This document shows positions 24,944-44,844 of a stretch of DNA of 64,000 bases, one piece after another. The notes beneath the pieces were generated by a model that was not told the origin of the DNA, did not search any database, and saw only the letters and a list, made by a program, of their open reading frames with translations. A program made the translations under genes and the position numbers. Each line of letters starts with the position of its first letter. Within the stretch, counting starts at the first letter, position 1. Origin of the DNA: an uncultured Chloroflexia bacterium (lineage in GTDB: Bacteria; Chloroflexota; Anaerolineae; CG2-30-64-16); NCBI GenBank assembly GCA_963774265.1, contig CAVZDU010000009.1, forward strand, positions 75,144-139,143, in the 5' to 3' direction.

Positions 24944-26635
24944 TTGGGCAGATATCTTCGCTGGCAGGCCGTCATTGCCCTCCTGGGCATCGTGCTGCTG
25001 GCTGCCCTGCTGCGCTATGCCGCCTACAACTTCACGACGCGTGACCGTTCCCGAACCGGGGCGGGACCTGTGTCGAAGGGGTGGCCGGCAATCCCCAATA
25101 CCTGAACCCGCTCCTCAGCCAGTACAACCAGGTGGATGGGGTCCTGTGCAGCCCTGCTCTTCAACGGCCTGACCCGGCTGGATGAGCAGGGCAATGTCGT
25201 TCCCGACCTGGCTGAGAGTGGACCGTCAGCCCGGACGGCCTGACGTACGACTTCCGCTTGCGCTCGGGCCTCTACTGGCATGACGGCGCGCCGGTGACCG
25301 CGGCCGACGTGCTGTACACGGTCGGCGCGATGCAGGCCGAGGATTTCCCCGGCATGCCCTGGCTCAGCACGCTCTGGCGCGACGGTCGAAGTCGAGCGCA
25401 CCGGACGGCCCCGAGGGTCTGACCGTGCGCTTCAAGCTCAAGCAGCCGCTTGCGCCGTTCCTCGACTACACCACCATCGGCCTGCTGCCGGCCCACCTGT
25501 GGGAGCAGGTGCCGGTCGCCGAGATGATGAGCTCGCAGCTCAACACCCGGCCGATCGGCACCGGCCCGTTCCAGCTCGCCCAGATCAGCGCCACGCGCGC
25601 CGATCTGTCGCCGTCAATCCGCGCTATCACGGCGCATCGCGCCTTACCTCGACCGGGCTGACCTTCCGCTTCTATCCCGACCACCAGAGCCTGCTGCCCG
25701 CCTACGACCGCGAGGAGATCGACGGCATCAGTTGGATCTGGCCCGAGGAGATGCCGGACGCGACGGCCGCACGAGGACCTGCAGCTGTTCTCCGCGCCCG
25801 CTGTCGGGCTACACGCTGATCTACCTGAACCAGCACAATCCCAACGTGCCGTTCTTCAAGGAGACGTGCCGTGCGCCAGGCGCTGCTGTACGCGCTCGAT
25901 CGCCAGGCGCTGATCGACACCGTCCTGCACGGCCAGGGTCTCGTCGCGCATTCCCCGATCCTGCCCGGCACCTGGGCCTACGATCGCCGATGTCACGCAG
26001 TACGCCTACGATCCCGAGCGCGGCGCGCCAGCTGCTGGATGAGGCCGGCTGGAAGGATAGCGACGGCGACGGCGTGCGCGATCAGGACGGCATGAAGCTG
26101 GCCTTCGTCCTGCTGGGCAACGACAAGGCCATGATCGAGGCGATCTCCGCGGCCTGGGCGAGCATCGGCGTCCAGGCGGCGCCGCAGCCGGTCACGCCTG
26201 CCCGGCCTGACCAGCCGACTTCCTGGTCCCGCGCACCTTCGACGCCGCGTTGGTCGACTGGGAGCTGACCGGCGATCCCGATCCGTATCCGCTCTGGCAT
26301 TCGACGCAGATCAAGGACGGGCAGAACTACGCCGGCTGGGAGAACCGCGCACGCCGACGAGGCCATCGAGCAGGCGCGCTGCGCTCACCGATCGCGAAGC
26401 CGTCGCCGCAGCTTACTACCTGGAGTTCCAGCGCATCTTCGCAGAGGAGGTGCCGGCGCTGCTGCTCTACTACCCGGTCTACACCTACGGCGTGCGCGAA
26501 CAAGATCCACGACGTGCAGATCGGGCCCGCTCAACACGCCCGGCGACCGCTTCCGCAGCATCGCGAACTGGTACATCGTCACCAAGCGGATTACGGTCAG
26601 CACCGGCAAGTGCACCGACCGCGCGCACGACTTGA
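24944..26635 (+). CDS. Peptide ABC substrate-binding protein (OppA/DppA family), many indels
   Basis: Fragments LFNGLTR, PDLAE, WHDGAPVTAADV, PIGTGPF, RQALLYALDR, LDEAGWKD. Confidence 0.75.
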
Positions 26636-26661
26636 CAGCCGACCGGGAATAGTGGTATAAA
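26632..26661 (+). promoter_or_regulatory. tRNA-Leu promoter
   Basis: TTGACA ... extended -10 TGGTATAAA. Confidence 0.55.
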
Positions 26662-26683
26662 TCGGTCACAATCGAACAGCCGA

Positions 26684-26768
26684 GCCGAAGTGGCGGAATG
26701 GCAGACGCGCTAGGTTCAGGACCTAGTGAGGATTATCCCTCGTGAGGGTTCAAATCCCTCCTTCGGCA
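26684..26768 (+). tRNA. tRNA-Leu(CAG)
   Basis: GCCGAAG/CTTCGGC acceptor stem, CTAGG-TTCAGGA-CCTAG anticodon arm, long variable arm, GGTTCAAATCC. Confidence 0.95.
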
Positions 26769-26844
26769 CTGGAACGTCGAGAATCCCACGGCACTTCGTC
26801 GTGGGATTCTGTGCCTCAGGGCCTGAACGAGGAGTGTCCCTGTC

Positions 26845-27253
26845 ATGGTCACCAGGAGGCAAGCGGTGTCCTGCCTGGTCCGTTCAGCCAACTGCATGCT
26901 GCTGGCCGATCGTAGCTGATCGCGCTGGTTGCGCTTGTGGCTGCGGTCTTCTTCACAGCTGGCTTCATCGAGCTAACGGTAGCACGGCGTCAGTTGGAAG
27001 CGCATTACCAGCAAGCCCAGCAGCCAGGTCGGAGCGCACACGCCGGCAGAACGACGCTGCTGCAGGTCGATCTGGAGCGTGCGCAGCGGGGTCGAGATCA
27101 CTGCCCTGGCAGGCGTGGGACATGCTTCGGCAAGCTGCCCAAGGGACACGGGCGTCATCGCAGGCCGCGCCGGGCACGGACGACACACCGACTGTCGAGC
27201 AGCGCCAAAACGCCCATCTGGGACGGACTGGTGGCTGAAGTCCTTGGGCATAA
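26845..27253 (+). CDS. Probable FtsB/DivIC-like septum formation initiator (frameshifted; ends approximate)
   Basis: Single TM helix followed by a Gln-rich coiled coil and a short C-terminus ending PIW. Confidence 0.45.
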
Positions 27254-27255
27254 CC

Positions 27256-27283
27256 TTGACAAAGGGCCACAAACAGGTATAAT
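27256..27283 (+). promoter_or_regulatory. Consensus promoter for tRNA-fMet
   Basis: TTGACA-16-TATAAT. Confidence 0.8.
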
Positions 27284-27294
27284 AACTTATACGT

Positions 27295-27643
27295 CGCGGG
27301 GTGGAGCAGTGGCAGCTCGTTGGGCTCAATCCCCGAAACTGACAGCAGGTCGGGCAAGCAATGCCGCACAATGTTTGCCGGAGAGTCAGATTCGGAGAGG
27401 GCTGCACGCAGAGTAATCTGCGTGTGATCACCTGTCAAAGTCGGGGAAGCCGTTAGCGGGGTAACCCCGAGCCAAGCTCCGGTGTAAGCTGGAGAAGGTG
27501 TAGAGACTTGATGGCAGGCGCCCTACCGGGTCAAGCCGGGGGCGAAGGGAAAGTCCAGACCACAAAGCCGGGTGACCGGTGCAGCAAAAGCTGTAGTGGT
27601 AAGCATAACCCAAAGGTCGCAGGTTCGAATCCTGCCCCCGCAA
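27295..27643 (+). tRNA. Initiator tRNA-fMet(CAT), split by an intron (exons 27295-27326 and 27604-27643)
   Basis: Spliced product CGCGGGG...TTGGG-CTCATAA-CCCAA...GGTTCGAATCC...CCCCGCAA; C1:A72 mismatch and three G-C pairs in the anticodon stem. Confidence 0.92.
27327..27603 (+). ncRNA. Group I self-splicing intron (IC3-like), inserted between U33 and C34
   Basis: Follows U, ends in G; core motifs AAAGTCGGGGAAGCC, GGTAACCCCGAGCCAAG, GGTGTAGAGACT, AAAGTCC; P2 CACGCAGA-GTAA-TCTGCGTG. Confidence 0.92.
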
Positions 27644-27652
27644 CCTTGAGAG

Positions 27653-27686
27653 ACCTGGCAGCGATCAGCTGCCAGGTTTTTCTTTT
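27653..27686 (+). terminator. Intrinsic terminator after tRNA-fMet
   Basis: ACCTGGCAGC-GATCA-GCTGCCAGGT + T-tract. Confidence 0.85.
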
Positions 27687-27753
27687 GTCCTCATCTGCGT
27701 GTCGCGAGGCGATCATGGATACCGGCACCACCGGAGGTCGAATCGAGCACAAT

Positions 27754-27782
27754 TTGACCGGGCAGCGTCACCCGCATATAAT
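27754..27782 (+). promoter_or_regulatory. tRNA-Met promoter
   Basis: TTGACC-17-TATAAT. Confidence 0.7.
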
Positions 27783-27797
27783 AGCCGGGTTGTGAAC

Positions 27798-27869
27798 GGC
27801 GACGTAGCTCAGTGGCAGAGCAAGCGGCTCATAATCGCTGGGTCCTCAGTTCGAGTCTGAGCGTCGCCA
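27798..27869 (+). tRNA. tRNA with CAT anticodon, most likely elongator tRNA-Met
   Basis: GGCGACG/CGTCGCC acceptor stem, AGCGG-CTCATAA-TCGCT arm, CTCAG-TTCGAGT-CTGAG T arm; Ile2 not fully excluded. Confidence 0.9.
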
Positions 27870-27979
27870 CCTAAGCCGGTGGCCCGAGGCTGCGATAGTA
27901 GCACGGTCACCTCTTAACCCGATAACGCCTTCCGGTGAGCGTGCTCCTTGGGAGCCTTGCGCTGCCGTAAGGCGTTTTT
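27803..27979 (+). repeat. Left 177-bp direct repeat (att-like) of the island
   Basis: Identical to 39102-39278 except one base (27892 G vs 39191 A). Confidence 0.93.
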
Positions 27980-27981
27980 TT

Positions 27982-28120
27982 GTGGCAAGCACACAGGCGA
28001 TTCCCATTCGAGGTCATTCGCAGAAGGAAATCCCCACCCTGCGCAGCCTGGCGGAGGTGTTGCCCGTTTTCGCTGGCTTTGGCGAACTTAACCATTGTCC
28101 CCAGACTGTGAGGTGGAAGC
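27982..28120 (+). pseudogene. Possible N-terminal remnant of a tyrosine integrase
   Basis: LAEVLPVF...LNHCPQTVRW resembles the SAM-like N-terminal S/CP.T..WY helix; position right after the att repeat. Confidence 0.3.
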
Positions 28121-28231: not shown

Positions 28232-30604
28232 ATGACCACTGAAGCCGATACCTGCCGCAAATACGTCCTGCCCAAGCTCGTCAGCGCGGGCTGGGACGAA
28301 GAGCCCCACTCCTTCACCGAGCAGCGGACCTTCACCGATGGCCGGATTGTCGTCATCGGCGAGAAGGTAAGGCGCCGCCCACAGAAGCGGGCCGACTACC
28401 TGCTCCGCTACACCCGGGACTTCACCATCGCCGTGGTCGAGGCCAAGCCCGAGTACAAGACCGCCGGCGAAGGGCTCCAGCAGGCCAAGGACTACGCCGA
28501 GATCCTCGGCCTCAAGTTCGCCTACTCCACGAACGGTCACGGCATCGTCGAGTTCGACTACTTCACCGGACAGGAGCGCCTGCTCATCGCCTTCCCAACG
28601 CCCGACGAGCTGTGGCAGCGCTGGCAGGCCGGCCAGCAGGTGACGCGATGACGTCGGCAAGTCCCTGCTGACCCCCGCGCACCACCTCAGCGGCAAGACT
28701 CCTCGCTACTACCAGGAGATCGCCATCAACCGCACGGTGCAGGCCATTCTGCAGGGCAAGCGGCGCATCCTGCTGACGATGGCGACCGGCACCGGCAAGA
28801 CGGTGGTGGCCTTCCAGATCTGCTGGAAGCTGTGGAACGCCCGCTGGAACCGCACCGGCGAGTACCGGCGCCCCCGCATCCTCTACCTGGCCGACCGCAA
28901 CATCCTGGTCGATGACCCGAAGGACAAGATATTCGCTGCCTTCGGCGACGCCCGCTGGAAGATCGAGAACGGCGAAGCCAACAAGAGCCGGGAGATGTAC
29001 TTCGCCATCTACCAGGCCATCGCTCAGGACGAGCGCCGTCCTGGCCTGTACCGGGAGTATCCGCCCGACTTCTTTGACCTGATCATCGTGGACGAGTGCC
29101 ACCGCGGCAGCGCTCGGGATGAGAGCAACTGGCGGGAAATCCTGGAATACTTCCAACCGGCGTTCCAACTGGGCATGACCGCCACGCCGCTGCGCGAGGA
29201 CAACCGGGACACCTACGCCTACTTCGGCAACCCGCTCTACACCTACAGCCTGCGCCAGGGCATCGAGGACGGCTTCCTGGCTCCCTACCGGGTCCATCGC
29301 GTGTTGACGACCTACGACGCCGTGGGCTGGCGGCCAAGCAAGGGCGAGCTGGACCGGTTCCTGCGGGAAGTGCCGGACCGGGAGTACTCGACCCCGGACT
29401 TCGAGCGCATCGTTGCCCTGCGGGCGCGCACCGAGGCCATCGCCCGCCACCTGGCCGAGTTCATGCGCAAGACCGACCGCTTTGCCAAGACCATCGTCTT
29501 CTGCGTGGACCAGGAGCACGCCGACGAGATGCGCCGCGCAGCTCAACAACCTGAACGCCGACCTGGTGCAGAAGTATCCCGACTACGTGTGCCGGGTGAC
29601 CGCCGACGAAGGCGAGATTGGCCGGGGCCACCTGTCGCGCTTCCAGGAACTGGAGACCAGGACGCCGGTCATCCTGACCACGTCGCAGCTGCTGACGACC
29701 GGCGTGGACGTGCCGACCTGCAAGAACATCGTCATCGCCCGCGTGGTCGGCGGCATGACCGAGTTCAAGCAAATCATCGGCCGCGGCACCCGTGTCCGCG
29801 ACGACTACGGCAAGCTCTTCTTCAACATCCTGGACTACACCGGCAGCGCCACGCGGCTGTTCGCCGACCCCGAGTTCGACGGCTGGCCGGCCATGGCCGA
29901 CGAAGTGACGATTGATGAGCAGGGCCAGGTGGTCGCAGGGCACCGAGAAGGTGGTGCAGCCGGAAGAGACCGAGCACGGACGATAGCGAGGGCGGGACGG
30001 AGATCGGAGGCGACGACACGGCACAACTGCCGCGCAAGTACTACGTCGATGAGCGGCCAGGTCGAGGTCGTCGCCCACCTCGTCTACGAGCTGGACCCCG
30101 ATGGCAAGCAACTGCGCGTCGTCAAGTTCACGGACTACACGGCCGAGAAGGTCCGCACCATGTACACATCGGCGGCCGAGCTGCGGCGCCAATGGGCCGA
30201 CCCGGCGCTGCGAGCGGATATCATCGCCAGGCTGGAAGAGCGAGGCATCAGCTTCGATGAGCTGCGCACGGTGACCAACCAGCCCGACGCCGACCCGTTC
30301 GACCTGCTGTGCCACGTGGCGTTCAACGCGCCGCTGCGCACCCGCCGGGAACGGGCCGACCGTCTCCGCAAAGAGGAGCGCGCCTTCTTCGAGCAGTATG
30401 GGGCTCGAGGCCCGAGAAGTGCTGGACGAGCTGCTGGAGAAGTACGCCGAGCACGGCACTGCTCAGTTCGCCATCCCTGACGTGCTGAAGGTGCCGCCCA
30501 TCTCCAAGCATGGCAATGTGATTGAGATTGCGAGCCTGTTCGGCGGGGCGGCGCAGCTGCGCGAGGCGGTCAACCAGCTGCAGTCACTGCTCTATGCCGC
30601 CTAA
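28232..30604 (+). CDS. hsdR: Type I restriction subunit (EcoAI/EcoEI-like), frameshifted
   Basis: ADYLL..AVVEAK nuclease, MATGTGKT, DECHRG, GMTATP, QIIGRGTR; EcoEI-type C-terminus DPFDLLCHVAF. Confidence 0.9.
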
Positions 30605-30616
30605 GGAGACGCAGTG

Positions 30617-32162
30617 ATGGCAATCACGCTGAAGACGGCAGCTGAACGACGACGAGAAGGCAGCGCATTCTCGAAATCCATGGGCGCAGTGTGCTTCGCC
30701 ACAGGCCATGCGATTCCCGATGGGCGAACCGGTTCAGTTCGACCACATTCGACGCGTTTACGCTGATGGCGGCGCTAGCGAACTGGACAATATCGCTCCG
30801 ATGTGCGAGGACCCATAACAAGGCGAAAGGCACGCTGCCGCTTGGCGGACTTCAGGGTGAAGCTGCGTCTTGCAGGAGCTTCTTCTACCAGGGCGACAGC
30901 GCTGACCCTGAAGGACCTACTGGCATACTTGACAGTCGCAGGGTGACATCGAGTCCTACGGGCAGCCTGTGGCGGTCACTGAAGCTACGACGAGCAAGGC
31001 TGGATCGATTCGAGACGCTGGCACGGTAACTTCGACTATCCGCTCTACACGTGCCCGACGACCGGGTGGAAGTACTTCTACGCGACCCTACCTATCGAGC
31101 TCTGGATAGCGACGATGATGCCGACCACGAAGCTGGCCTGCAGCCTCGCTATCTGATCTTCGACAAGGTGTTTGAGCTTGTACCGGCACTTTCAGCGACA
31201 TCCCGTGCTGCAGCCTTCGATTGGCAGAATTCGACAACAATCGGATTCTGCTGTTCGACGGCCAGCATAAGATGGCTGCTCTGCTGTGGACTGGACGACG
31301 AGTATTCGAATGCAAGATCTATCTCTCGCCGACCTGCGCCTGCTTAATCAGACGAACATCGCGGCCCATGACAAGTTCGCTCAGACGCGATTCTACACTT
31401 CGGTCATGGTCATGAAACTGGGAGCCGAGTTCGGCGCGGACTTCGAGAAGTACAAGAACCTGGAGGACGGCGCAGCCAAGAGCGAGGCCGGTTTCATGCG
31501 TTTCCTGGAGCAGAGACCGCGCAACCAGACGATGAGCGAGCGACATCAAGAGCGCTTCCGCAGCTACCTGTACAACTCGTGTACTGGAGAGCCGCCGACA
31601 ACCGATGCCGCTCAGCTATCGTCTCGAACGCGAACCGCAGTACGGACGAGAAGCCGCTGACCATGGACATGCTTGAGCAAGTCGCTGTTTGCCTGCTTCC
31701 TGTACACCGAGCCCGTCGAAGACGACATGGCGACCGACGCGTACAAGCGTGACAAGGAGATCGCGAACAACATCGCTCTGATGAACATGCTATACGACCT
31801 CGCGTCTCGGCGCCTGGAATCCGAAGGCGGGCCCGAATGACGGCACGCAGAGGAAGCTCAACCGGATGTTCCGGTCGAAGTCGATCATGGCTTGGTCCGA
31901 GCTGCTGCAGGGACGCGATCTGCGGCAAGCTGGAACTGCAGGATAGCGAGGACCGGGCACGACCTTTCTACCGCGACCTTACTGGCGAGGACCTTGGACC
32001 GAGTGAAGAAGTCTGTCGAACGGCTAGTGAACTGGAAGCTGTGGGCAGTCTCCACGCAGACGGCGAGATCGACCGGATCCTGTCGGACAATAAGAGTGCG
32101 GTAAGGATTGGTTCAAGGACCACGGCCTGACCACCGGGTATCTTATGGGGGCACCCGAATGA
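30617..32162 (+). CDS. HNH endonuclease fused to a DGQH(K/R)/ParB-like domain, many indels
   Basis: Reconstructed FDHI..GGASELDNIAPMCE.HNKAK near 30735-30835; LLFDGQHKMAALL near 31250-31290; AAGGAG RBS; stop overlaps the hsdM ATG (ATGA). Confidence 0.7.
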
Positions 32163-33738
32163 GCAGGCACAAGCGGCAAGACCGCAGCACCCTCACCACC
32201 GCCCAGCAGCTCGGCAGCATCATCAAGTCGGCGCGCGACATCATGCGCAAGGACAAGGGGCTGAACGGCGACCTCGACCGCCTGCCGATGCTCACCTGGA
32301 TCATGTTCCTCAAGTTCCTGGACGACATGGAGCGGATCGCGCGAGGCAGGAGGCGATCCTGGCGGGCGAGCGCTTCCGCCCGGCCATCGAGCCGCCCTAC
32401 CGCTGGCGCGACTGGGCGGCCAACGAGACGACGGCATCACCGGCGACGACCTGATCGCCTTCATCAACAACGACGAGGCCATGCGGCCCGACGGCACGCG
32501 CGGCCCGGGCCTGTTCGCCTACCTGCGCGGCCTGCAGGGCGCCAACGGCGGCGACCGGCGCGACGTGATCGCCACCGTCTTCCGGGCGTCGTCAACCGCA
32601 TGATCAACGGCTACCTGCTGCGCGACGTCATCAACAAGGTCAACGGCATCCACTTCACCGTCATCGGACGAGATCCACACCCTGGGCGCGCTGTACGAGT
32701 CGATGCTCAAGGAGATGCGCGACGCGGCCGGCGACTCCGGCGAGTTCTACACGCCCGCGCGCCGGTGGTCCGCTTCATGGTCGAGGTGATCGACCCGCGG
32801 CTGGGCGAGACCGTGCTCGACCCGGCCTGCGGCACCGGCGGCTTCCTGGTCGAGGCGTACAAGCACCTGGAGACGCAGTGCCAGACGGTCGAGGACCGCG
32901 AGACGCTGCAGGCAGCAGAGCATCTTCGGCGGCGAGGCCAAGCCGCTGCCCTACCTGCTGGCGCAGATGAACCTGCTGCTGCACGGGCTGGAGTACCCGC
33001 AGGATCGACCCGGACAACAGCCTGCGCTTCCCGCTGCGCGAGATCGGCGACCGGGACCGGGTGGACGTCATCCTGACCAACCCACCCTTCGGCGGCGAGG
33101 AGGAGCGCGGCATCCTCGGCAACTTCCCCGACGACAAGCAGACCGCCGAGACGGCGCTGCTGTTCCTGCAGCTCATCATGCGCAAGCTGCGCCGCCAGCC
33201 CGAAGCCGGGCCGGGCCGCCGTGGTCGTGCCCAACGGCACGCTCTTCGGCGACGGCGTGTGCGGCGCGCATCAAGGAGGAGCTGCTGAAGGAGTTCAACC
33301 TGCACACCATCGTGCGGCTGCCCAACGGCGTCTTCGCGCCCTACACCAGCATCCCGACCAACCTGCTGTTCTTCGACCGCTCCGGCCCGACGCAGGACGA
33401 TCTGGTACTACGAGCAGCCGCTGCCCGAGGGCCGCAAGAAGTACACCAAGACGCAGCCGCTGCAGTACGAGGAGTTCGCCGACTGCCTGGCGTGGTGGAA
33501 GGACCGGCAGGAGAACGAGCGGGCGTGGAAGGTGAAGGCCGCCGACGTGCTGCAAGCTACGACGCGGCCGGCAACCTGGTCTCGGTCAACCTGGACATCA
33601 AGAACCCCAACGCCGCAGCAGGACCTGGAGCACCTGCCGCCGGAGCAGTTGGTCGAGGACATCCTGCGAGAAGGAGCAGCGGATTGCGGAGATAATGATG
33701 GAAATCAAGCAAGCGCTGACGGAGACGGCTCACGGTGA
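32159..33738 (+). CDS. hsdM: Type I RM N6-adenine methyltransferase, frameshifted
   Basis: IKSARDIMRKDKGLNGD, GEFYTPR, DPACGTGGFL, ILTNPPFGG. Confidence 0.92.
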
Positions 33739-34985: not shown

Positions 34986-35666
34986 ATGGCCTCTGATTGG
35001 CCGCTAGTAATTGTCACCCTCTTGGTGGCAGTCACCGCCCTCCTAGTTCCTCTCGTCGCGGAATGGCTGAAACGAAGGGTCTATGCTCCAAGGCTGCAGG
35101 TGACGTACCGGCACGCTCCTCCTTGTAGCATACGTACCGGATGGCGCTCCCCCGTCAATCCTGCGCTCCGCGAACCCGTCCACTACTTCAGGTAGTAGGT
35201 TGTCAACACAAGTGAATCGCGAGCAGAGCATTGCGAGGCCGTCCTCGAGGAGTTGTTCGTATATGATGCATCCGGGACGGCACGTAAGTTACCGGATTTC
35301 TCGTCACAGAACTTGCGCTGGGCAGGAACCGGGGAGACACTTGTGCAAATCAACCCCCGTCGGACAATGTATTGCGACATCGGCCATATCTCGTCTCCCA
35401 CATATCAAGCCAGGGAGGAGCATGCCGTTTTCCTAGACGTTCCTGGTCGCGGCGATAATGCGCTGCGTATGCTGTTGGACGAGGTGTCGTACCCGTATTC
35501 TCAACCCAATTGTCTCGCGCCGGGCAAGTATCGTCTAAAGATTGTAGTCTACTCCCAAAATGCACCCACCGTTGTCGCATGGTTGGAAGTTGATTGGACG
35601 GGAAGATGGCAGGACGCGCAGTCCGATATGCTGCGAGAACTGGTCATCACGGCCAAGAAGGGGTAA
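34986..35666 (+). CDS. Hypothetical protein, N-terminal TM helix and beta-rich body (disrupted near 35195)
   Basis: MASDWPLVIVTLLVAVTALLVPLV...; LAPGKYRLKIVVYSQN at the C-terminus; GAGGTG RBS. Confidence 0.55.
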
Positions 35667-35682
35667 GGGTTTCACGAAATCC

Positions 35683-37443
35683 ATGGACGAAGTGGAGTTG
35701 ATGGTGCTTATCGCCGAAGGCGAGAGCGAACGGCTCGATTTCAAGCGAGAGCTTCGGCTCGACACGGGGCGAATGAAGGCTGAGTTCATCAAAGACGTCA
35801 TATCTCTTGCCAATTCGGCCTCGGGCGTCGGCTACCTTTTAATCGGTGTCGATGATGAAAAACTAATTGTAGGAGCCGCGGAGGTCTCGGAGGAGCAAAT
35901 TCAGAGTGTCTGCGACAGTTACATTACTCCACCGATTGCAGTCAAATACTATGCAGTGCCTTTTTCCACTCCCATCGTGCCCCCAGTTGGGGTCTTGGAG
36001 GTTAGGGCTCGTCGGCGTCCTCACCGGGTCGCTCGACCAATAGAGAACCTGAGCAAAGAAAACGTCTATGTGAGACACGGGTCCGTGGTAGCACGGGCTG
36101 GACCTGACGAAATAATCAAGTTGGATGAAGGCTGGCTGCGAGAGGCAGCAAAGAACCAACGACGGCTGACTGTGGCTGGAGGGAAGCTAACGCGGGGTAA
36201 CTGGACGGAAGCCATAAAGGGATTCTCCAGAGTCATCGACGCGGAACCAAGTGGAGAGGTTTATCTGGAGCGCTGTGAAGGCGTTTACTGAGGCTTACAA
36301 AATCACGCAGCCGCAGGAAAACGCCACTGACGCTGGAAGACTTCTCCGTAGTGCCTATGAGGACTACTGCCATGCAGTGGACCTGGCCGATTCCGTGGAG
36401 TTGGAGAGGAAAGCGCGGAAGGGGCGCCTACGCTTTGACTTTGGCCGCGGTCCCGAAGGGGAATGGGACACCGATTTGGCGTGGCTCAAATCGCGCTCGG
36501 AGGGACGCGAATACGGGGAAGTCCTCGTCTGCGAGCAGCAAGTCTATTACAATCGTTCAGGCGAGGTCGGTCACGACGCGGTCCCTCTGCTTACACAGGC
36601 AATTGAGCTGGGATGTGACAGCGCTCAGGCATATTTCCTCCGTGCAATAGGACATCGAGCTGGCTTCAACTACGGTCTTGCTCTGAATGATTTGGATGAA
36701 GCAGTTCGTCGCTTGAAGCAGGGCGACGCGAAGACTTTCGCTGAGTATCTCACATATCAAGCTGAGGTGCTGGCTTCGATGGAGAGATTTGGAGAGGCGT
36801 ACAGGGCATTGGAGCAAGCGAGCAAAGCTGACTCAAGAACCATGCGAGTGACAACTTGGCTCACGTGGAACCAATCCATGGTGCTTTGTCTTGAAGTATG
36901 CCCTGCAAGCCGGTTTCCCTGGCTGCGAGCCATATGAGACTGCTCAAATCGCTGCAGCGAAGGTACTGGCGCTGAGTTTGGACCCCTCGGCGGTCCGCGA
37001 AACATACGCCGATTGCCCGGAGCTGAGAGCACTTGTGGAGAGACTGCTGGGCGAAGACTTTGCTGAACTCGTGCGGAATGATCTCAACCAGTACACTGTC
37101 GAGATACAGGCGGAGAGTATTATTGACCGTGCCGACATCTATCGAATCTGGCCTCGAACATCCCGAGCGCCAGGTGATTGAGTGATGGGCGAGAGCTTTC
37201 GAGGTGTGCTTCCACTGGGTCCGGACCATCAACCAGCACGGCGGAGTTCGGTCGCTGGCGTTCGGATGTGTCCAAGCAGCCGGGGGACATACTGGACATT
37301 CTTGCGCAGCACGTCACATATGGACAGGAGTGATGGAGATGCAGCACCTCGGCATCGCATACGCGGGCAGCGTTTCTATCGATGCGAACCGTTTTGCCAC
37401 AACAAGTGACCGCCGTATAGCGAGCAAACTATGGATGCCATAA
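35683..37443 (+). CDS. Schlafen/AlbA_2 domain + TPR-repeat protein (frameshifted; 3' end approximate)
   Basis: GESERLDFKRE...KDVISLANS..GYLLIGVDD...VYVRHGS, then TPR-like helices (AYFLRAIGH...ALNDLDEAV; EAYRALEQA). Confidence 0.75.
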
Positions 37444-39106
37444 TTGCCGGTCTACATCATTGGCTTCGCTCTCTTCACAGTGGTCTTCACTGTGTTGATA
37501 GTTCGTAGGGCGAGGGAGCAAGAGGCGCGGGGCGGCGGACGAGCAGGTGAGGGTATTACGCGAGGCGGAGGGGCAGCGGAAAGAACAGGAGAGGAGATCG
37601 CGAGGCGGAGGGGCGGCGGAAAGAACAGTACGAGAGGATGAGGGAAGGGCTGGAAAGGCACAGGAAGCAGGAGAGGGAGCAGAAGGAGATGCGGGAGAAG
37701 CAGGAGAGGGAGCAGAAGGAGATGTGGGAGAGGCAACTGCGGGAGGCGGAGGAGAAACGCAAAGAGTACCAAACTCGCTGGAACGCAGTGCAGGCAAACG
37801 TGCGAAGCGCCACCCAGCTGAGGGAGTTCGTGCCCCGGATTCTTACTGACGCCGCTCTATTTCCTCGCTCAACCTCTGGTTCCCTGGACCCAGAGAGCAC
37901 GCTTTTTCGACCCGAGTAGGCATCGTTGACCTGCAAGGCCACTTCAAGCAGGTCCTTCTCAGCGGTCGCTACCCCTCCGCGTTTCCCATCTCCCATGACC
38001 TATTCCTCGATTCCGGCACTGGAATCCTGGTCGTCGACTACACCCTGCCTGCGCCGAGTGACCTTCCGACGCTCAAGGAGGTTCTTGAGAAGCGCAGCAC
38101 TGGTGAAACAGTGGAGAAGCACATAAGCACCACCGAACACAGTCGGCTCTACGATACTCTCGTTTACAGTATAGCGTTGCGCACCATCCATGAGCTGTTT
38201 GCAGCGGATGTCCAAAAGGTAGTGACCGCGGTGGTATTCAACGGGTATGTACAGACGGTGAACCCCGCCACGGGCCAACCCGCGCGTCCGTGCATCATTT
38301 CCGTGCACGCCGGCAAGGACCAGTTCCAAGCCATCAATCTCGCCAACGTCGAGCCGAAAGCTTGCTTCCGACTTCTCAAGGGGGTTGGAAGCTCAAAGCT
38401 GCACACGATAACCCCCATAGTGCCCATCTTCAGCGTTTCGATGGAGGATAAGCGATTCGTCACGTCTCGGCCCATCGTCGAGGCAGTGCAAGGGGACCAG
38501 AATCTTGCCAGCATGGATTGGGAGGACTTCGAGCACCTTGTCCGCGAGGTTCTTGAAACGGAGTTTGCTGGAAACGGGGGCGAGGTGAAGGTGACCCGTG
38601 CCAGTCGCGACGGTGGGATTGACGCCATAGCATTTGACCCGGACCCGATTCGCGGCGGCAAGATTGCCATCCAAGCCAAGCGGTATACAAATACGGTTGG
38701 TGTGGCAGCGGTGCGCGACCTGTATGGCACCGTCATCAATGAGGGGGCCATGAAAGGAATCCTGGTCACCACTGCAGACTATGGCCCCGACGCCTATGAA
38801 TTTGCGAAAGGCAAGCCCATTACGTTACTCAACGGGGGCCACTTGCTGTATTTGCTGGAGAAGCACGGTCACCGGGCCCGCATCGACCTGGAGGAGGCCA
38901 AACGTACCCTTGCTGAGTCCCAAACTGCGACAGGGTCGTCAACTGCTCGACCGCGCAGTCGTGAGACTCGACAATGCTGTGACGGTAATCATGCGACAGC
39001 AGCGGCAGAGCTCGAGTGCGGAGTCTTTTCGTCAGCGAGAGGACCTTCGAAGCCGGGGAAGCTCACATCCGCAGCTAGCCCGAACATGAACGGGCAAGTA
39101 TCGTAG
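37444..39106 (+). CDS. Mrr-like restriction endonuclease with N-terminal TM helix and coiled coil (frameshifted)
   Basis: C-terminal FEHLVRE...SRDGGIDAI...IQAKRY...VRDLYG...GILVTT Mrr_cat motif; N-terminal YIIGFALFTVVFTVLIV. Confidence 0.8.
37664..37729 (+). repeat. 33-bp coding tandem repeat (KQEREQKEMRE-type)
   Basis: GAAGCAGGAGAGGGAGCAGAAGGAGATG(C/T)GGGA x2; a second duplicated segment near 37558-37628. Confidence 0.8.
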
Positions 39107-39278
39107 CTCAGTGGCAGAGCAAGCGGCTCATAATCGCTGGGTCCTCAGTTCGAGTCTGAGCGTCGCCACCTAAGCCGGTGGCCCGAGGCTACGATAGTAG
39201 CACGGTCACCTCTTAACCCGATAACGCCTTCCGGTGAGCGTGCTCCTTGGGAGCCTTGCGCTGCCGTAAGGCGTTTTT
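39102..39278 (+). repeat. Right 177-bp direct repeat; includes a 5'-truncated tRNA-Met copy
   Basis: tRNA positions 6-73 plus 110 nt of trailer; first 5 acceptor-stem bases replaced. Confidence 0.93.
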
Positions 39279-44759: not shown

Positions 44760-44844
44760 GGTGATTCCATCCTGATCGTATGCAATGAAAATGCGGAAGG
44801 CTCAATGATCCGATTTCTGCCTTCCGCATTCTGACTTCTCCGAG

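What the first reader, a model, noticed from the sequence alone, without database searches (positions are those of the whole stretch)
27295..27643. Self-splicing group I intron in the initiator tRNA of an apparently non-cyanobacterial host
Seen: tRNA-fMet halves separated by 277 nt inserted at U33/C34. The intron has a U.G splice-site pair (exon GGCT|C with guide GGGCT at 27399-27403), P2 with a GUAA loop (27405-27424), P3 CACCTGTCA/TGGCAGGCG, P4 TCGGGG/CCCCGA, P6a CTCCGG/CTGGAG, P7 GAGACT/AGTC, P9 hairpins and a terminal G at 27603. It has its own consensus promoter and terminator. Known: fMet introns at this position are best described from cyanobacteria, and standard tRNA finders often miss such split genes. 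Inference: if this is the only fMet gene, translation initiation depends on ribozyme splicing. It is also a compact GC-rich ribozyme candidate.
Basis: partly seen in the sequence, partly recalled or inferred. Interest (0 to 1): 0.78.

Follow-up and report, generated by a model that had tools for sequence, protein, structure and literature searches.

The report
Group I intron splitting initiator tRNA
The only initiator tRNA gene found in this Chloroflexota (Anaerolineales-like) genome is interrupted by a 277-base self-splicing-type group I intron of a long-known class that turns out to be spread over many bacterial phyla, so it is a sound but fairly ordinary find.

Summary
Window 27295-27645 is a tRNA-fMet gene split between U33 and C34 by a 277-nt intron (27327-27603). 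It has a U.G splice-site pair, a terminal G, helices P1-P9, a 12/12 sigma-70 promoter and an intrinsic terminator. Rfam's group I model matches only the P3-P7 core, below its cut-off (32.3 bits against 50). An alignment of 50 homologous introns supports the fold: 93.8% of cells paired and 38 pairs with changes on both sides. It is the classical "fMet.2Ug" IC3 intron, first described in cyanobacteria. One capped scan of species genomes found at least 96 split fMet genes, 61 of them in records titled as non-cyanobacteria. Twenty-two carry an I-Ssp6803I-like endonuclease gene in P1. This copy has no such ORF and has a covarying 69-nt P1 extension instead. The host is Anaerolineales-like. The intron occurs in 7 of 37 family genomes, at a syntenic site that is uninterrupted in close relatives. 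No uninterrupted initiator gene was found in this genome or in five intron-bearing relatives. Splicing itself was not shown. Verdict: real, a new member of a known kind, of modest interest.

The parts
27256..27283 (+). sigma-70-type promoter TTGACA-16-TATAAT, 11 nt upstream of tRNA position 1
   Evidence: 12 of 12 hexamer matches. Two such sites were found in 26500-28100, against a mean of 0.3 in shuffles.
27295..27326 (+). 5' exon of tRNA-fMet (positions 1-33, ends in U33)
   Evidence: It is 100% identical to the 5' half of uninterrupted fMet genes of relatives.
27327..27603 (+). group I intron, 277 nt, class fMet.2Ug (IC3 according to the literature)
27330..27398 (+). P1 extension. A long imperfect hairpin sits where related introns carry the endonuclease ORF. 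The apical loop is conserved among the six family copies.
   Evidence: the same hairpin appears in the MFE folds of 6 of 6 family copies, with compensatory changes seen by eye. One search gives the ORF position in long forms; no endonuclease-domain similarity.
27399..27403 (+). internal guide sequence GGGCU. G27400 pairs with U33 (U.G wobble), G27401-C32, C27402-G31, and G27399 pairs with the first intron base C27327.
   Evidence: U.G in 50 of 50 aligned introns; the other three P1 pairs in 49-50 of 50.
27405..27424 (+). P2, 8 bp with a GUAA tetraloop
   Evidence: all 8 pairs show changes on both sides among the 50 sequences. L2 is GAAA in 36 of 50 and GUAA in 4.
27431..27556 (+). catalytic core. 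P3 (27431-27437 / 27512-27518), P4 (27441-27446 / 27465-27470), P5 (27449-27451 / 27460-27462), P6 (27471-27473 / 27497-27499), P6a (27477-27482 / 27489-27494), P7 (27503-27508 with a bulged A / 27552-27556), P8 and P8a (27519-27529 / 27536-27544).
   Evidence: RF00028 model positions 49-158; positions; pair counts; P7 invariant; P3, P6a and P8 covary
27560..27599 (+). P9 domain. The closing stem CCAC/GUGG encloses a hairpin with a GUGA loop (27567-27580) and a hairpin 27582-27593 whose loop reads AAAA here.
   Evidence: that loop is GAAA in 48 of 50 aligned introns and in the 5 other family copies.
27603..27603 (+). terminal (omega) G before the 3' splice site
   Evidence: the intron ends in G and the exon starts with CATAACCC in 96 of 96 resolved homologues (this is partly how they were selected)..
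27604..27645 (+). 3' exon of tRNA-fMet (C34 to discriminator A at 27643, then CC; the final A of CCA is not encoded)
27648..27692 (+). intrinsic terminator: hairpin, then a T run
   Evidence: hairpin at 27648-27682 (15 pairs counted, 8 G-C, loop of 5), followed by a T-rich tail.

Best explanation
Window 27295-27645 is the initiator tRNA gene of an Anaerolineales-like (Chloroflexota) bacterium. A 277-nt group I intron of the classical fMet.2Ug (IC3) class interrupts it between U33 and C34.

The gene is transcribed from its own promoter as a roughly 370-nt precursor. The intron then folds. P1 pairs the end of the 5' exon (G31-C32-U33) with the guide GGGCU, giving the U.G wobble. P3-P8 form the core with the guanosine site in P7. 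An external guanosine attacks after U33. The terminal G27603 then takes the same site and the exons are ligated, restoring the CUCAUAA anticodon loop.

This copy is an ORF-less descendant of a mobile intron family. Full-length members of that family carry an I-Ssp6803I-type PD-(D/E)XK homing endonuclease gene in the P1 loop. The endonuclease target is the almost invariant DNA of the initiator anticodon arm, which would explain the spread over many phyla. In this lineage a structured P1 extension occupies the ORF's place.

No uninterrupted initiator gene is detected, so translation initiation in this organism very probably depends on the splicing.

Shown here: the gene structure, the fold with covariation, homology, distribution, and absence of a second copy in the assemblies. 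Inferred: transcription, self-splicing, the homing history, and dependence.
For: - Split gene and canonical spliced initiator tRNA.
- RF00028 hit on the P3-P7 core: E = 1.6e-6 in the local search and 4e-6 genome-wide.
- Alignment A3 of 50 fMet introns from several phyla. Of 64 proposed pairs, 93.8% of cells are paired, against 32-42% when the partner column is slid. There are 38 pairs and 372 cells with changes on both sides, and 0 of 500 shuffles reach any of the measures. The U.G is invariant in 50 of 50 and P7 is essentially invariant.
- MFE z-score of -6.17; the centroid fold recovers P2, P3, P4, P5, P6a, P8, P9 and the P1 extension.
- blastn of the intron hits 96 of 120 scan loci at E < 1e-5. 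These include Scytonema, Nostoc and Trichodesmium records at 76-79% identity over about 200 nt.
- 22 of the 96 resolved homologues are over 400 nt. Of these, 21 (635-695 nt) have an open frame of 132-190 residues and L036 (514 nt) a shorter one of 103, all in the P1 loop. Two full ORFs were tested. L129 matches PDB 2OST at E = 3.8e-62, and both L129 and L060 match Pfam PDDEXK_5 at about 1e-50. The literature places the Synechocystis ORF in P1 too (PMC3073962, passage seen).
- The tRNA-Leu(CAG) - fMet - tRNA-Met order is conserved. The fMet gene is interrupted in G000, G004 and G006. G014's locus ends before the third gene, and G005 is partial at a contig end. The gene is uninterrupted in the 9 relatives' loci checked by ARAGORN.
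- The exons occur nowhere else in the 5.5-Mb assembly. ARAGORN finds no other initiator. An uninterrupted initiator anticodon arm is absent, allowing up to 1 mismatch, from 5 of 5 intron-bearing relatives that are 87-96% complete.
- Consensus promoter and terminator.
Against: - RF00028 scores 32.3 bits, below its gathering score of 50, and covers only model positions 49-158.
- No splicing was observed. The one RNA-library contig that joins 27326 to 27604 differs from the window at 3 places in exon 2, so it may be another organism's uninterrupted gene. RNA libraries may also hold DNA.
- The assembly is 84% complete with 5.65% contamination, so a second initiator gene cannot be excluded for this genome alone.
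- The P9a loop reads AAAA in this copy, where 48 of 50 aligned introns and all 5 other family copies read GAAA. This could weaken a tertiary contact, or it could be an assembly error.
- The own genome has one 1-mismatch hit to the uninterrupted anticodon-arm motif at C7:54685. ARAGORN calls no tRNA there.
Confidence: 0.9

Rival explanations
1. The intron is a decayed, non-splicing relic and this locus is a pseudogene. The working initiator gene would lie in the unassembled part of the genome.
For: The assembly is 84% complete. RF00028 scores below its gathering score. The P9a loop reads AAAA instead of the near-invariant GAAA. There is no endonuclease ORF.
Against: Both exons are 100% identical to the uninterrupted genes of relatives. 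All core pairs are intact and the U.G and omega G are kept. The promoter and terminator are perfect. Five other intron-bearing genomes (87-96% complete) also lack an uninterrupted initiator arm, 0 of 5. The four family introns in the tree are 83-90% identical by blastn yet keep the fold.
Confidence: 0.04
2. The intron is spliced in vivo but not autonomously. It would need a host protein or chaperone, so 'self-splicing ribozyme' overstates it.
For: Nothing was tested at the bench. The deviant P9a loop and the large P1 extension could call for help in folding. This reading is compatible with all the sequence evidence.
Against: As I recall from the 1994 EMBO J paper (cited in PMC8450103, reference list seen, paper not read here), cyanobacterial members of the same family were reported as self-splicing in vitro. 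The core here is 76-84% identical to homologues in other phyla.
Confidence: 0.1
3. The contig is a contaminant or a mis-binned piece of another phylum (for example a cyanobacterium), so the host assignment is wrong.
For: Contamination is 5.65%. Mis-binning does occur: a record titled Acetobacteraceae nests inside a Nostoc clade of introns.
Against: The window's contig has 63% G+C, like the other nine contigs at 61-64%. The tRNA-Leu(CAG)-fMet-tRNA-Met neighbourhood is shared with genomes of the same genus and family, with or without the intron. The four family introns form their own clade with 98% support.
Confidence: 0.02
4. The fMet intron arose inside this lineage by transposition of the related intron that sits at the same loop position in the tRNA-Ile2(CAU) gene of the same genome (C7:102209-102502).
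For: The two genes share the insertion position and the same 11 letters around it. The introns share the same guide and are clearly homologous. The Ile2 intron is commoner in the family, at 18 of 37 genomes against 7 of 37.
Against: In the tree the 12 Ile2 introns and the 99 fMet introns are separated by a branch with 96% SH-aLRT support. The family's fMet introns nest among fMet introns of other phyla. By blastn the window's intron is 80-84% identical to fMet introns of Rhodothermales, Nitrospirota and Actinomycetota records over 176-216 nt. Against the own Ile2 intron it gives only short blastn-short matches of 23-30 nt and about 70% identity over positions 104-272.
Confidence: 0.03

Closest known systems
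Cyanobacterial tRNA-fMet group I intron (Biniszkiewicz, Cesnaviciene and Shub 1994; type 'fMet.2Ug' in Williams 2020, bioRxiv 10.1101/2020.01.27.920355)
   Same: It shares the host gene, the insertion point (CU|CAUAA) and the U-1/omega-G pair. It has the same core sequence and the same 3' end...GUAGUGGUAAG|CAUAACC. Scytonema, Nostoc and Trichodesmium records match the window's intron at 76-79% over about 200 nt, and all fall in one family in the tree.
   Different: The host is Anaerolineales-like (Chloroflexota). This copy has a 69-nt structured P1 extension found only in the six family copies, a GUAA rather than GAAA L2 loop, and an AAAA L9a loop.
Synechocystis PCC 6803 tRNA-fMet intron with the homing endonuclease I-Ssp6803I (PDB 2OST)
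   Same: It belongs to the same intron family. In 22 of 96 homologues from many phyla there is an open frame in the P1 loop that runs into P2 and beyond. The L129 ORF matches 2OST at E = 3.8e-62.
   Different: The window's intron has no ORF and no trace of the endonuclease domain. The only tblastn similarity is to the ORF tail that overlaps the ribozyme core. It is therefore presumably no longer mobile by homing.
Azoarcus pre-tRNA-Ile(CAU) intron (type Ile2.5Ug, IC3)
   Same: It is a compact, G+C-rich IC3-type tRNA intron. From memory only, the P4-P6 and P7-P3 core strings are nearly the same; no Azoarcus sequence was fetched here. The window's genome also has an intron in its tRNA-Ile2(CAU) gene.
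   Different: The Azoarcus intron sits after the anticodon, at loop position 5 (Williams 2020). The fMet intron and this genome's Ile2 intron both sit before the anticodon, at position 2.

Membership tests
Group I intron (Rfam RF00028 Intron_gpI) | 5' splice site after a U that forms a U.G wobble with an internal guide sequence in P1 | tested here: met
   U33.G27400 is flanked by C32-G27401, G31-C27402 and C27327-G27399. The U.G is present in 50 of 50 aligned homologues.
Group I intron (Rfam RF00028 Intron_gpI) | terminal guanosine (omega G) before the 3' splice site | tested here: met
   G27603 precedes CAUAACCC. The base before it varies among homologues while the G stays.
Group I intron (Rfam RF00028 Intron_gpI) | conserved core P3-P4-P5-P6-P7-P8 with the P3/P7 pseudoknot and a bulged base in P7 | tested here: met
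   helices are 85-100% paired. P3, P4, P6a and P8 show changes on both sides. P7 has 5 pairs, 4 of them invariant and 1 with a single one-sided change. Slid controls give 32-42% paired.
Group I intron (Rfam RF00028 Intron_gpI) | score at or above Rfam's gathering threshold (50 bits) | tested here: not met
   32.3 bits over model positions 49-158 only. The sister intron in tRNA-Ile2 scores 48.1 bits. Williams 2020 states that none of the 12 Rfam seeds were bacterial and used cut-offs of 18-20 bits.
Group I intron (Rfam RF00028 Intron_gpI) | guanosine-dependent self-splicing | not testable with these tools
   The RNA-library contigs were inconclusive.
fMet.2Ug class of bacterial tRNA introns (subgroup IC3 according to the literature) | inserted between loop nucleotides 2 and 3 (U33/C34) of an initiator tRNA | tested here: met
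   The initiator hallmarks are C1xA72, three G-C pairs in the anticodon stem and A11-U24. The hallmarks are recalled knowledge; the bases themselves are seen.
fMet.2Ug class of bacterial tRNA introns (subgroup IC3 according to the literature) | sequence homology to the cyanobacterial fMet introns | tested here: met
fMet.2Ug class of bacterial tRNA introns (subgroup IC3 according to the literature) | IC3 subgroup signature | not tested
   The subgroup label comes from Williams 2020, which cites a group I intron database. No subgroup classifier was run here.
Mobile intron with an I-Ssp6803I-type homing endonuclease | PD-(D/E)XK endonuclease ORF in the P1 loop | tested here: not met
   There is no ORF and no endonuclease-domain similarity in the intron or elsewhere in the genome. 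22 of 96 homologues carry such an open frame.

The most novel reading that the evidence does not exclude
In this Anaerolineales family the endonuclease gene has been replaced by a new, covarying P1 peripheral domain with a conserved apical loop (27330-27398). The only initiator tRNA gene and the only detected tRNA-Ile2(CAU) gene of the genome are both split at the same loop position by sister introns. Production of the two special CAU tRNAs, and hence both translation initiation and AUA decoding, could then be gated together by ribozyme folding or guanosine supply. That would make these domesticated regulatory introns rather than passive remnants.
Probability: 0.1. Interest if true: 0.55.

Novelty: new member of a known kind. 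Interest (0 to 1): 0.3.

Why it matters
It explains why standard annotation reports no initiator tRNA, and no tRNA-Ile2, for this genome and its relatives. It adds a well-supported Chloroflexota example to a classical intron class. It also shows that the fMet intron, with its I-Ssp6803I-type endonuclease, occurs in records titled as at least 15 non-cyanobacterial groups. A 2012 review (PMC3384342, passages seen) still describes that endonuclease and its close homologues as generally cyanobacterial. The presence/absence polymorphism inside one genus, at a syntenic site, is a clean natural case for studying intron gain and loss. The 277-nt G+C-rich ORF-less form is a convenient ribozyme to test.

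Tried and rejected
- Rfam at gathering threshold finds no intron in the window. Only the E-value mode shows the core.
- The protein-atlas search on a neighbouring ABC transporter gave no usable taxonomy.
- Pfam scans of large window ORFs gave no taxonomic marker.
- blastn of the 3' exon of the second split tRNA against E. coli genomes hit only a tRNA-Arg T-arm. The Ile2 assignment therefore rests on three things: the CAU anticodon, the C4-G69/C5-G68 acceptor pairs (a recalled TilS determinant), and the absence of any other tRNA-Ile2 call.
- Sequencing runs. No run holds more than 0.27 of the sampled words. The laid contigs are mostly uninterrupted fMet genes of other organisms. One RNA-library contig (207 nt, 4 differences) covers 27396-27569 and then diverges, so it is a close relative's intron. 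One 97-nt RNA-library contig joins 27326 to 27604 but has 3 differences in exon 2. Neither shows splicing of this gene. Parts without cover prove nothing, and I draw no habitat conclusion.
- A viral-contig scan with the omega-G plus exon-2 pattern found 0 stretches.
- 24 of the 120 scan loci gave no ARAGORN split gene and were not followed up. Several lie at contig ends. Others are in records titled Acidobacteria, Gaiellaceae, Thermoleophilia, Bifidobacterium and Sporobacter.
- The script stopped with an error because a regular expression was too strict. It was rerun.
- No covariance model of my own was built, because alignment A3 has 446 columns, over the 400-column limit. I used the count of structure pairs instead.
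- Table 1 and Figure 3 of Williams 2020 are images, and its supplementary files (its model and seed alignment) are closed. I could not see whether Chloroflexi fMet.2Ug introns or an Ile2 intron at position 2 are among its counts. This bears directly on the novelty claim.
- No positive control for the exon-2 pattern (the same pattern with an uninterrupted loop) was run over the class sample. The 0 of 379 outside the family may therefore partly reflect exon variants that the pattern misses.

Full report
**1. What is there.**
Reading 27100-27850 shows a canonical 5' half of an initiator tRNA at 27295-27326, ending GGGCU. A 3' half begins with CAUAACCC at 27604 and runs to the discriminator A at 27643, followed by CC. 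ARAGORN in its default mode and Rfam at gathering thresholds see only the neighbouring genes: tRNA-Leu(CAG) at 26684, elongator tRNA-Met at 27798, a partial tRNA-Met copy at 39098 and tRNA-Arg at 44844. With introns allowed, ARAGORN calls tRNA-Met(cat) at 27295-27645 with a 277-nt intron placed gggct|cataa. Joining the exons in a script gives a 74-nt cloverleaf. It has the C1xA72 mismatch, three G-C pairs closing the anticodon loop and A11-U24. I recall these as the hallmarks of bacterial initiators.

The gene has a 12/12 TTGACA-16-TATAAT promoter at 27256-27283 and a hairpin plus T-run terminator at 27648-27682.

**2. Is the insert a group I intron?**
Rfam RF00028 matches 27430-27519 (model positions 49-158, P3 to the 3' strand of P3). 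The E-value is 1.6e-6 in the local search and 4e-6 over the whole genome. The score is only 32.3 bits, against a gathering score of 50. I therefore tested the fold with homologues.

I aligned fifty fMet introns: the window's, three from its own family, and 46 from other phyla (alignment A3). I placed a hand-drawn P1-P9 structure on the window's sequence and counted pairs.
- Of 64 pairs, 93.8% of cells are paired, against 32-42% with the partner column slid by 1-3 positions.
- 38 pairs and 372 cells have changes on both sides, and 0 of 500 shuffles reach any measure.
- The splice-site U.G is present in 50 of 50 and P7 is essentially invariant.
- P2, P6a, P8, P9 and P9a covary throughout.

The caveat is that the structure was drawn on one of the aligned sequences. 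This favours it over the slid versions on 'cells paired', though not on compensatory changes.

The single-sequence fold has z = -6.17, and its centroid recovers most helices. The terminal G27603 and U33 delimit the intron. By every sequence-level criterion except Rfam's cut-off this is a group I intron. Williams (2020) notes that no Rfam seed was bacterial and worked at 18-20 bits.

**3. Which intron is it?**
Williams' preprint (whole text read; Table 1 and the figures are images I could not see) lists four classical bacterial tRNA intron settings: Leu.3Ug, Arg.5Ug, fMet.2Ug and Ile2.5Ug. All are IC3. The window's intron is fMet.2Ug, the setting first described in cyanobacteria. The 1994 EMBO J paper is cited in the tRNAscan-SE 2.0 paper, whose passage and reference list I saw.

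I ran one scan of the species-representative genome collection for 'G + CATAACCC..GGTC..GGTTC.AATCC', that is, an initiator 3' half preceded by G instead of U33.
- ARAGORN resolves 96 of the 120 as split fMet genes with U-1 and omega G.
- blastn with the window's intron hits 96 of the 120 loci at E < 1e-5. I did not check that these are the same 96.
- By record title, 35 of the ARAGORN-resolved 96 are cyanobacterial and 61 are not.
- The 61 include 19 Nitrospirota, 7 Omnitrophota, 6 Acidobacteriota, 5 Rhodothermales and 3 Planctomycetia.
- The rest are titled Chloroflexia, Ktedonobacterales, Actinomycetota, Methylomirabilota, Patescibacteria, Elusimicrobiota, proteobacterial groups and others.
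- Most are MAGs, so some titles may be wrong. A record titled Acetobacteraceae nests inside a Nostoc clade.

Intron lengths are 193-344 nt in 74 cases, 514 nt in one, and 635-695 nt in 21. The 22 long ones have an open frame in the P1 loop, starting about 20 nt after the 5' splice site in the full-length cases examined, and running into the core. The L129 ORF matches PDB 2OST at E = 3.8e-62. The L129 and L060 ORFs match Pfam PDDEXK_5 at about 1e-50. I recall 2OST as I-Ssp6803I; the entry itself is titled 'putative endonuclease'. A 2011 review tabulates the Synechocystis ORF as inserted in P1 and overlapping P1/P2.

The window's intron is therefore an ORF-less member of the I-Ssp6803I intron family. 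tblastn finds no endonuclease-domain remnant in it or elsewhere in the genome.

**4. Host and distribution.**
The genome is 5.5 Mb in 10 contigs, 61-64% G+C, 84% complete, with 5.65% contamination. The closest named record is L133, 87% identical over intron positions 7-277. It is titled 'uncultured Anaerolineales bacterium'. I take the host to be Anaerolineales-like Chloroflexota.
- In the family, 7 of 37 genomes (own included) carry the split gene: 4 of 8 in the own genus, 2 of 2 in a second genus and 1 of 3 in a third.
- In a class-wide sample, 4 of 401 genomes match, all in this family. None of the 379 genomes in the other families sampled matches. No positive control for the pattern was run.
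- The site is syntenic. tRNA-Leu(CAG), fMet and tRNA-Met lie in the same order in 3 intron-bearing loci. Among the 9 uninterrupted loci checked with ARAGORN, 6 show the full order and all 9 show an uninterrupted initiator-like gene.
- By my reading of the match table, the two exon matches abut on one contig in 24 of the 40 relatives. Three of these are in the same genus.

A quick maximum-likelihood tree was built from 111 rows and 213 columns, with SH-aLRT support only. It separates the 99 fMet introns from 12 Ile2 introns of the family with 96% support. The four family fMet introns form one clade with 98% support. That clade lies among fMet introns of other phyla; its nearest rows are an unclassified ORF-bearing one and an Actinomycetota one. 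Resolution deeper in the tree is poor, with 47 of 108 branches open.

The simplest reading is a single acquisition of an fMet intron by this family, or few acquisitions, followed by loss of the ORF, then either precise intron loss in some species or later spread within the family. I cannot tell gain from loss.

**5. Dependence.**
Neither exon occurs elsewhere in the assembly. ARAGORN finds no other initiator gene. The uninterrupted anticodon-arm motif, allowing up to 1 mismatch, is absent from the five other intron-bearing genomes tested, 0 of 5 at 87-96% completeness. In the own genome it has one mismatched hit at a place where ARAGORN calls no tRNA. Splicing is thus very probably required for translation initiation in these organisms. 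Bench proof is lacking, and the sequencing-run evidence is inconclusive (see Tried and rejected).

**6. Peculiarities of this copy.**
Between the 5' splice site and the guide lies a 69-nt hairpin (27330-27398). It is present in all six family copies, with compensatory changes seen by eye in both of its stems, and it has a conserved apical GCCGCACAAUG. Introns of other phyla have shorter and unrelated P1 loops, or the ORF.

L2 is GUAA here, against GAAA in 36 of 50. L9a is AAAA here, against GAAA in 48 of 50 and in all five other family copies. The latter is either a real weakening of a tetraloop contact or an assembly error.

**7. Verdict.**
This is a genuine group I intron of the classical fMet.2Ug class in a Chloroflexota host, and it is the only initiator gene detected. 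It is a new member of a known kind. The cross-phylum spread of this class is visible in public genomes and was counted by phylum in a 2020 preprint whose table I could not read. Interest is modest. The most novel reading left open is that the P1 domain, together with the parallel splitting of the fMet and Ile2 CAU tRNAs, has a regulatory role.

Noticed in passing
own genome C7:102176-102544 (locus L001:1465-1833), outside the window: A second group I intron of 294 nt (RF00028 48.1 bits, full model length) splits a CAU-anticodon tRNA with a GGGCCCC acceptor stem, most likely tRNA-Ile2. It sits at the same U33/C34 position, not the Azoarcus position after the anticodon. It carries CCUAAG...UAUGG, which I recall as the 11-nt GAAA-tetraloop receptor. 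It is present in 18 of 37 family genomes. I could not see whether this 'Ile2 position 2' setting is among the 17 new ones in Williams 2020.
   Followed up: partly
window 27803-27979 and 39102-39278: A 177-nt direct repeat (99% identical) covers most of the elongator tRNA-Met plus about 110 nt downstream. It brackets an 11.3-kb stretch with lower G+C near its end (55-58%). The stretch holds pieces of a type I restriction-modification system, apparently frameshifted: ResIII at 28737-29915, EcoEI_R_C at 29413-30480, and N6_Mtase split over 32108-33076 and 32967-33695. It also holds a Schlafen AlbA_2 protein (35560-36291) and an Mrr-type endonuclease (38111-39106). This looks like a defence island integrated at tRNA-Met. 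No integrase was seen.
   Followed up: partly
loci L030 (G015:C121) and L031 (G018:C81); possibly also L029, L032, L033: Other genomes of the same family carry core-matching introns in tRNA-Tyr(GTA), with a 337-nt intron, and in tRNA-Leu(UAA), with a 300-nt intron at the classical position. The window's own genome has uninterrupted tRNA-Tyr and tRNA-Leu(UAA) genes. The family is rich in tRNA group I introns.
   Followed up: no
locus L009 (G018:C321:1-2333), about 560-870: An Ile2-type intron with a normal 3' exon, but no recognisable 5' tRNA half upstream of it. It may be a degenerate or rearranged gene.
   Followed up: no
loci L058, L076 and unresolved L075, L096, L104, L108 (records titled Acidobacteria): These initiator 3' halves are preceded by ...GUGAGUCAGAUCG instead of the usual ...GUAGUGGUAAG. 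The two that ARAGORN resolved (238 and 260 nt) sit on a very long branch (1.68) in the tree. They may be a divergent intron subtype at the same site.
   Followed up: no
locus L105 (record titled Acetobacteraceae): Its fMet intron nests inside a clade of Nostoc introns with very short branches. This looks like a mis-binned cyanobacterial contig rather than a transfer.
   Followed up: no
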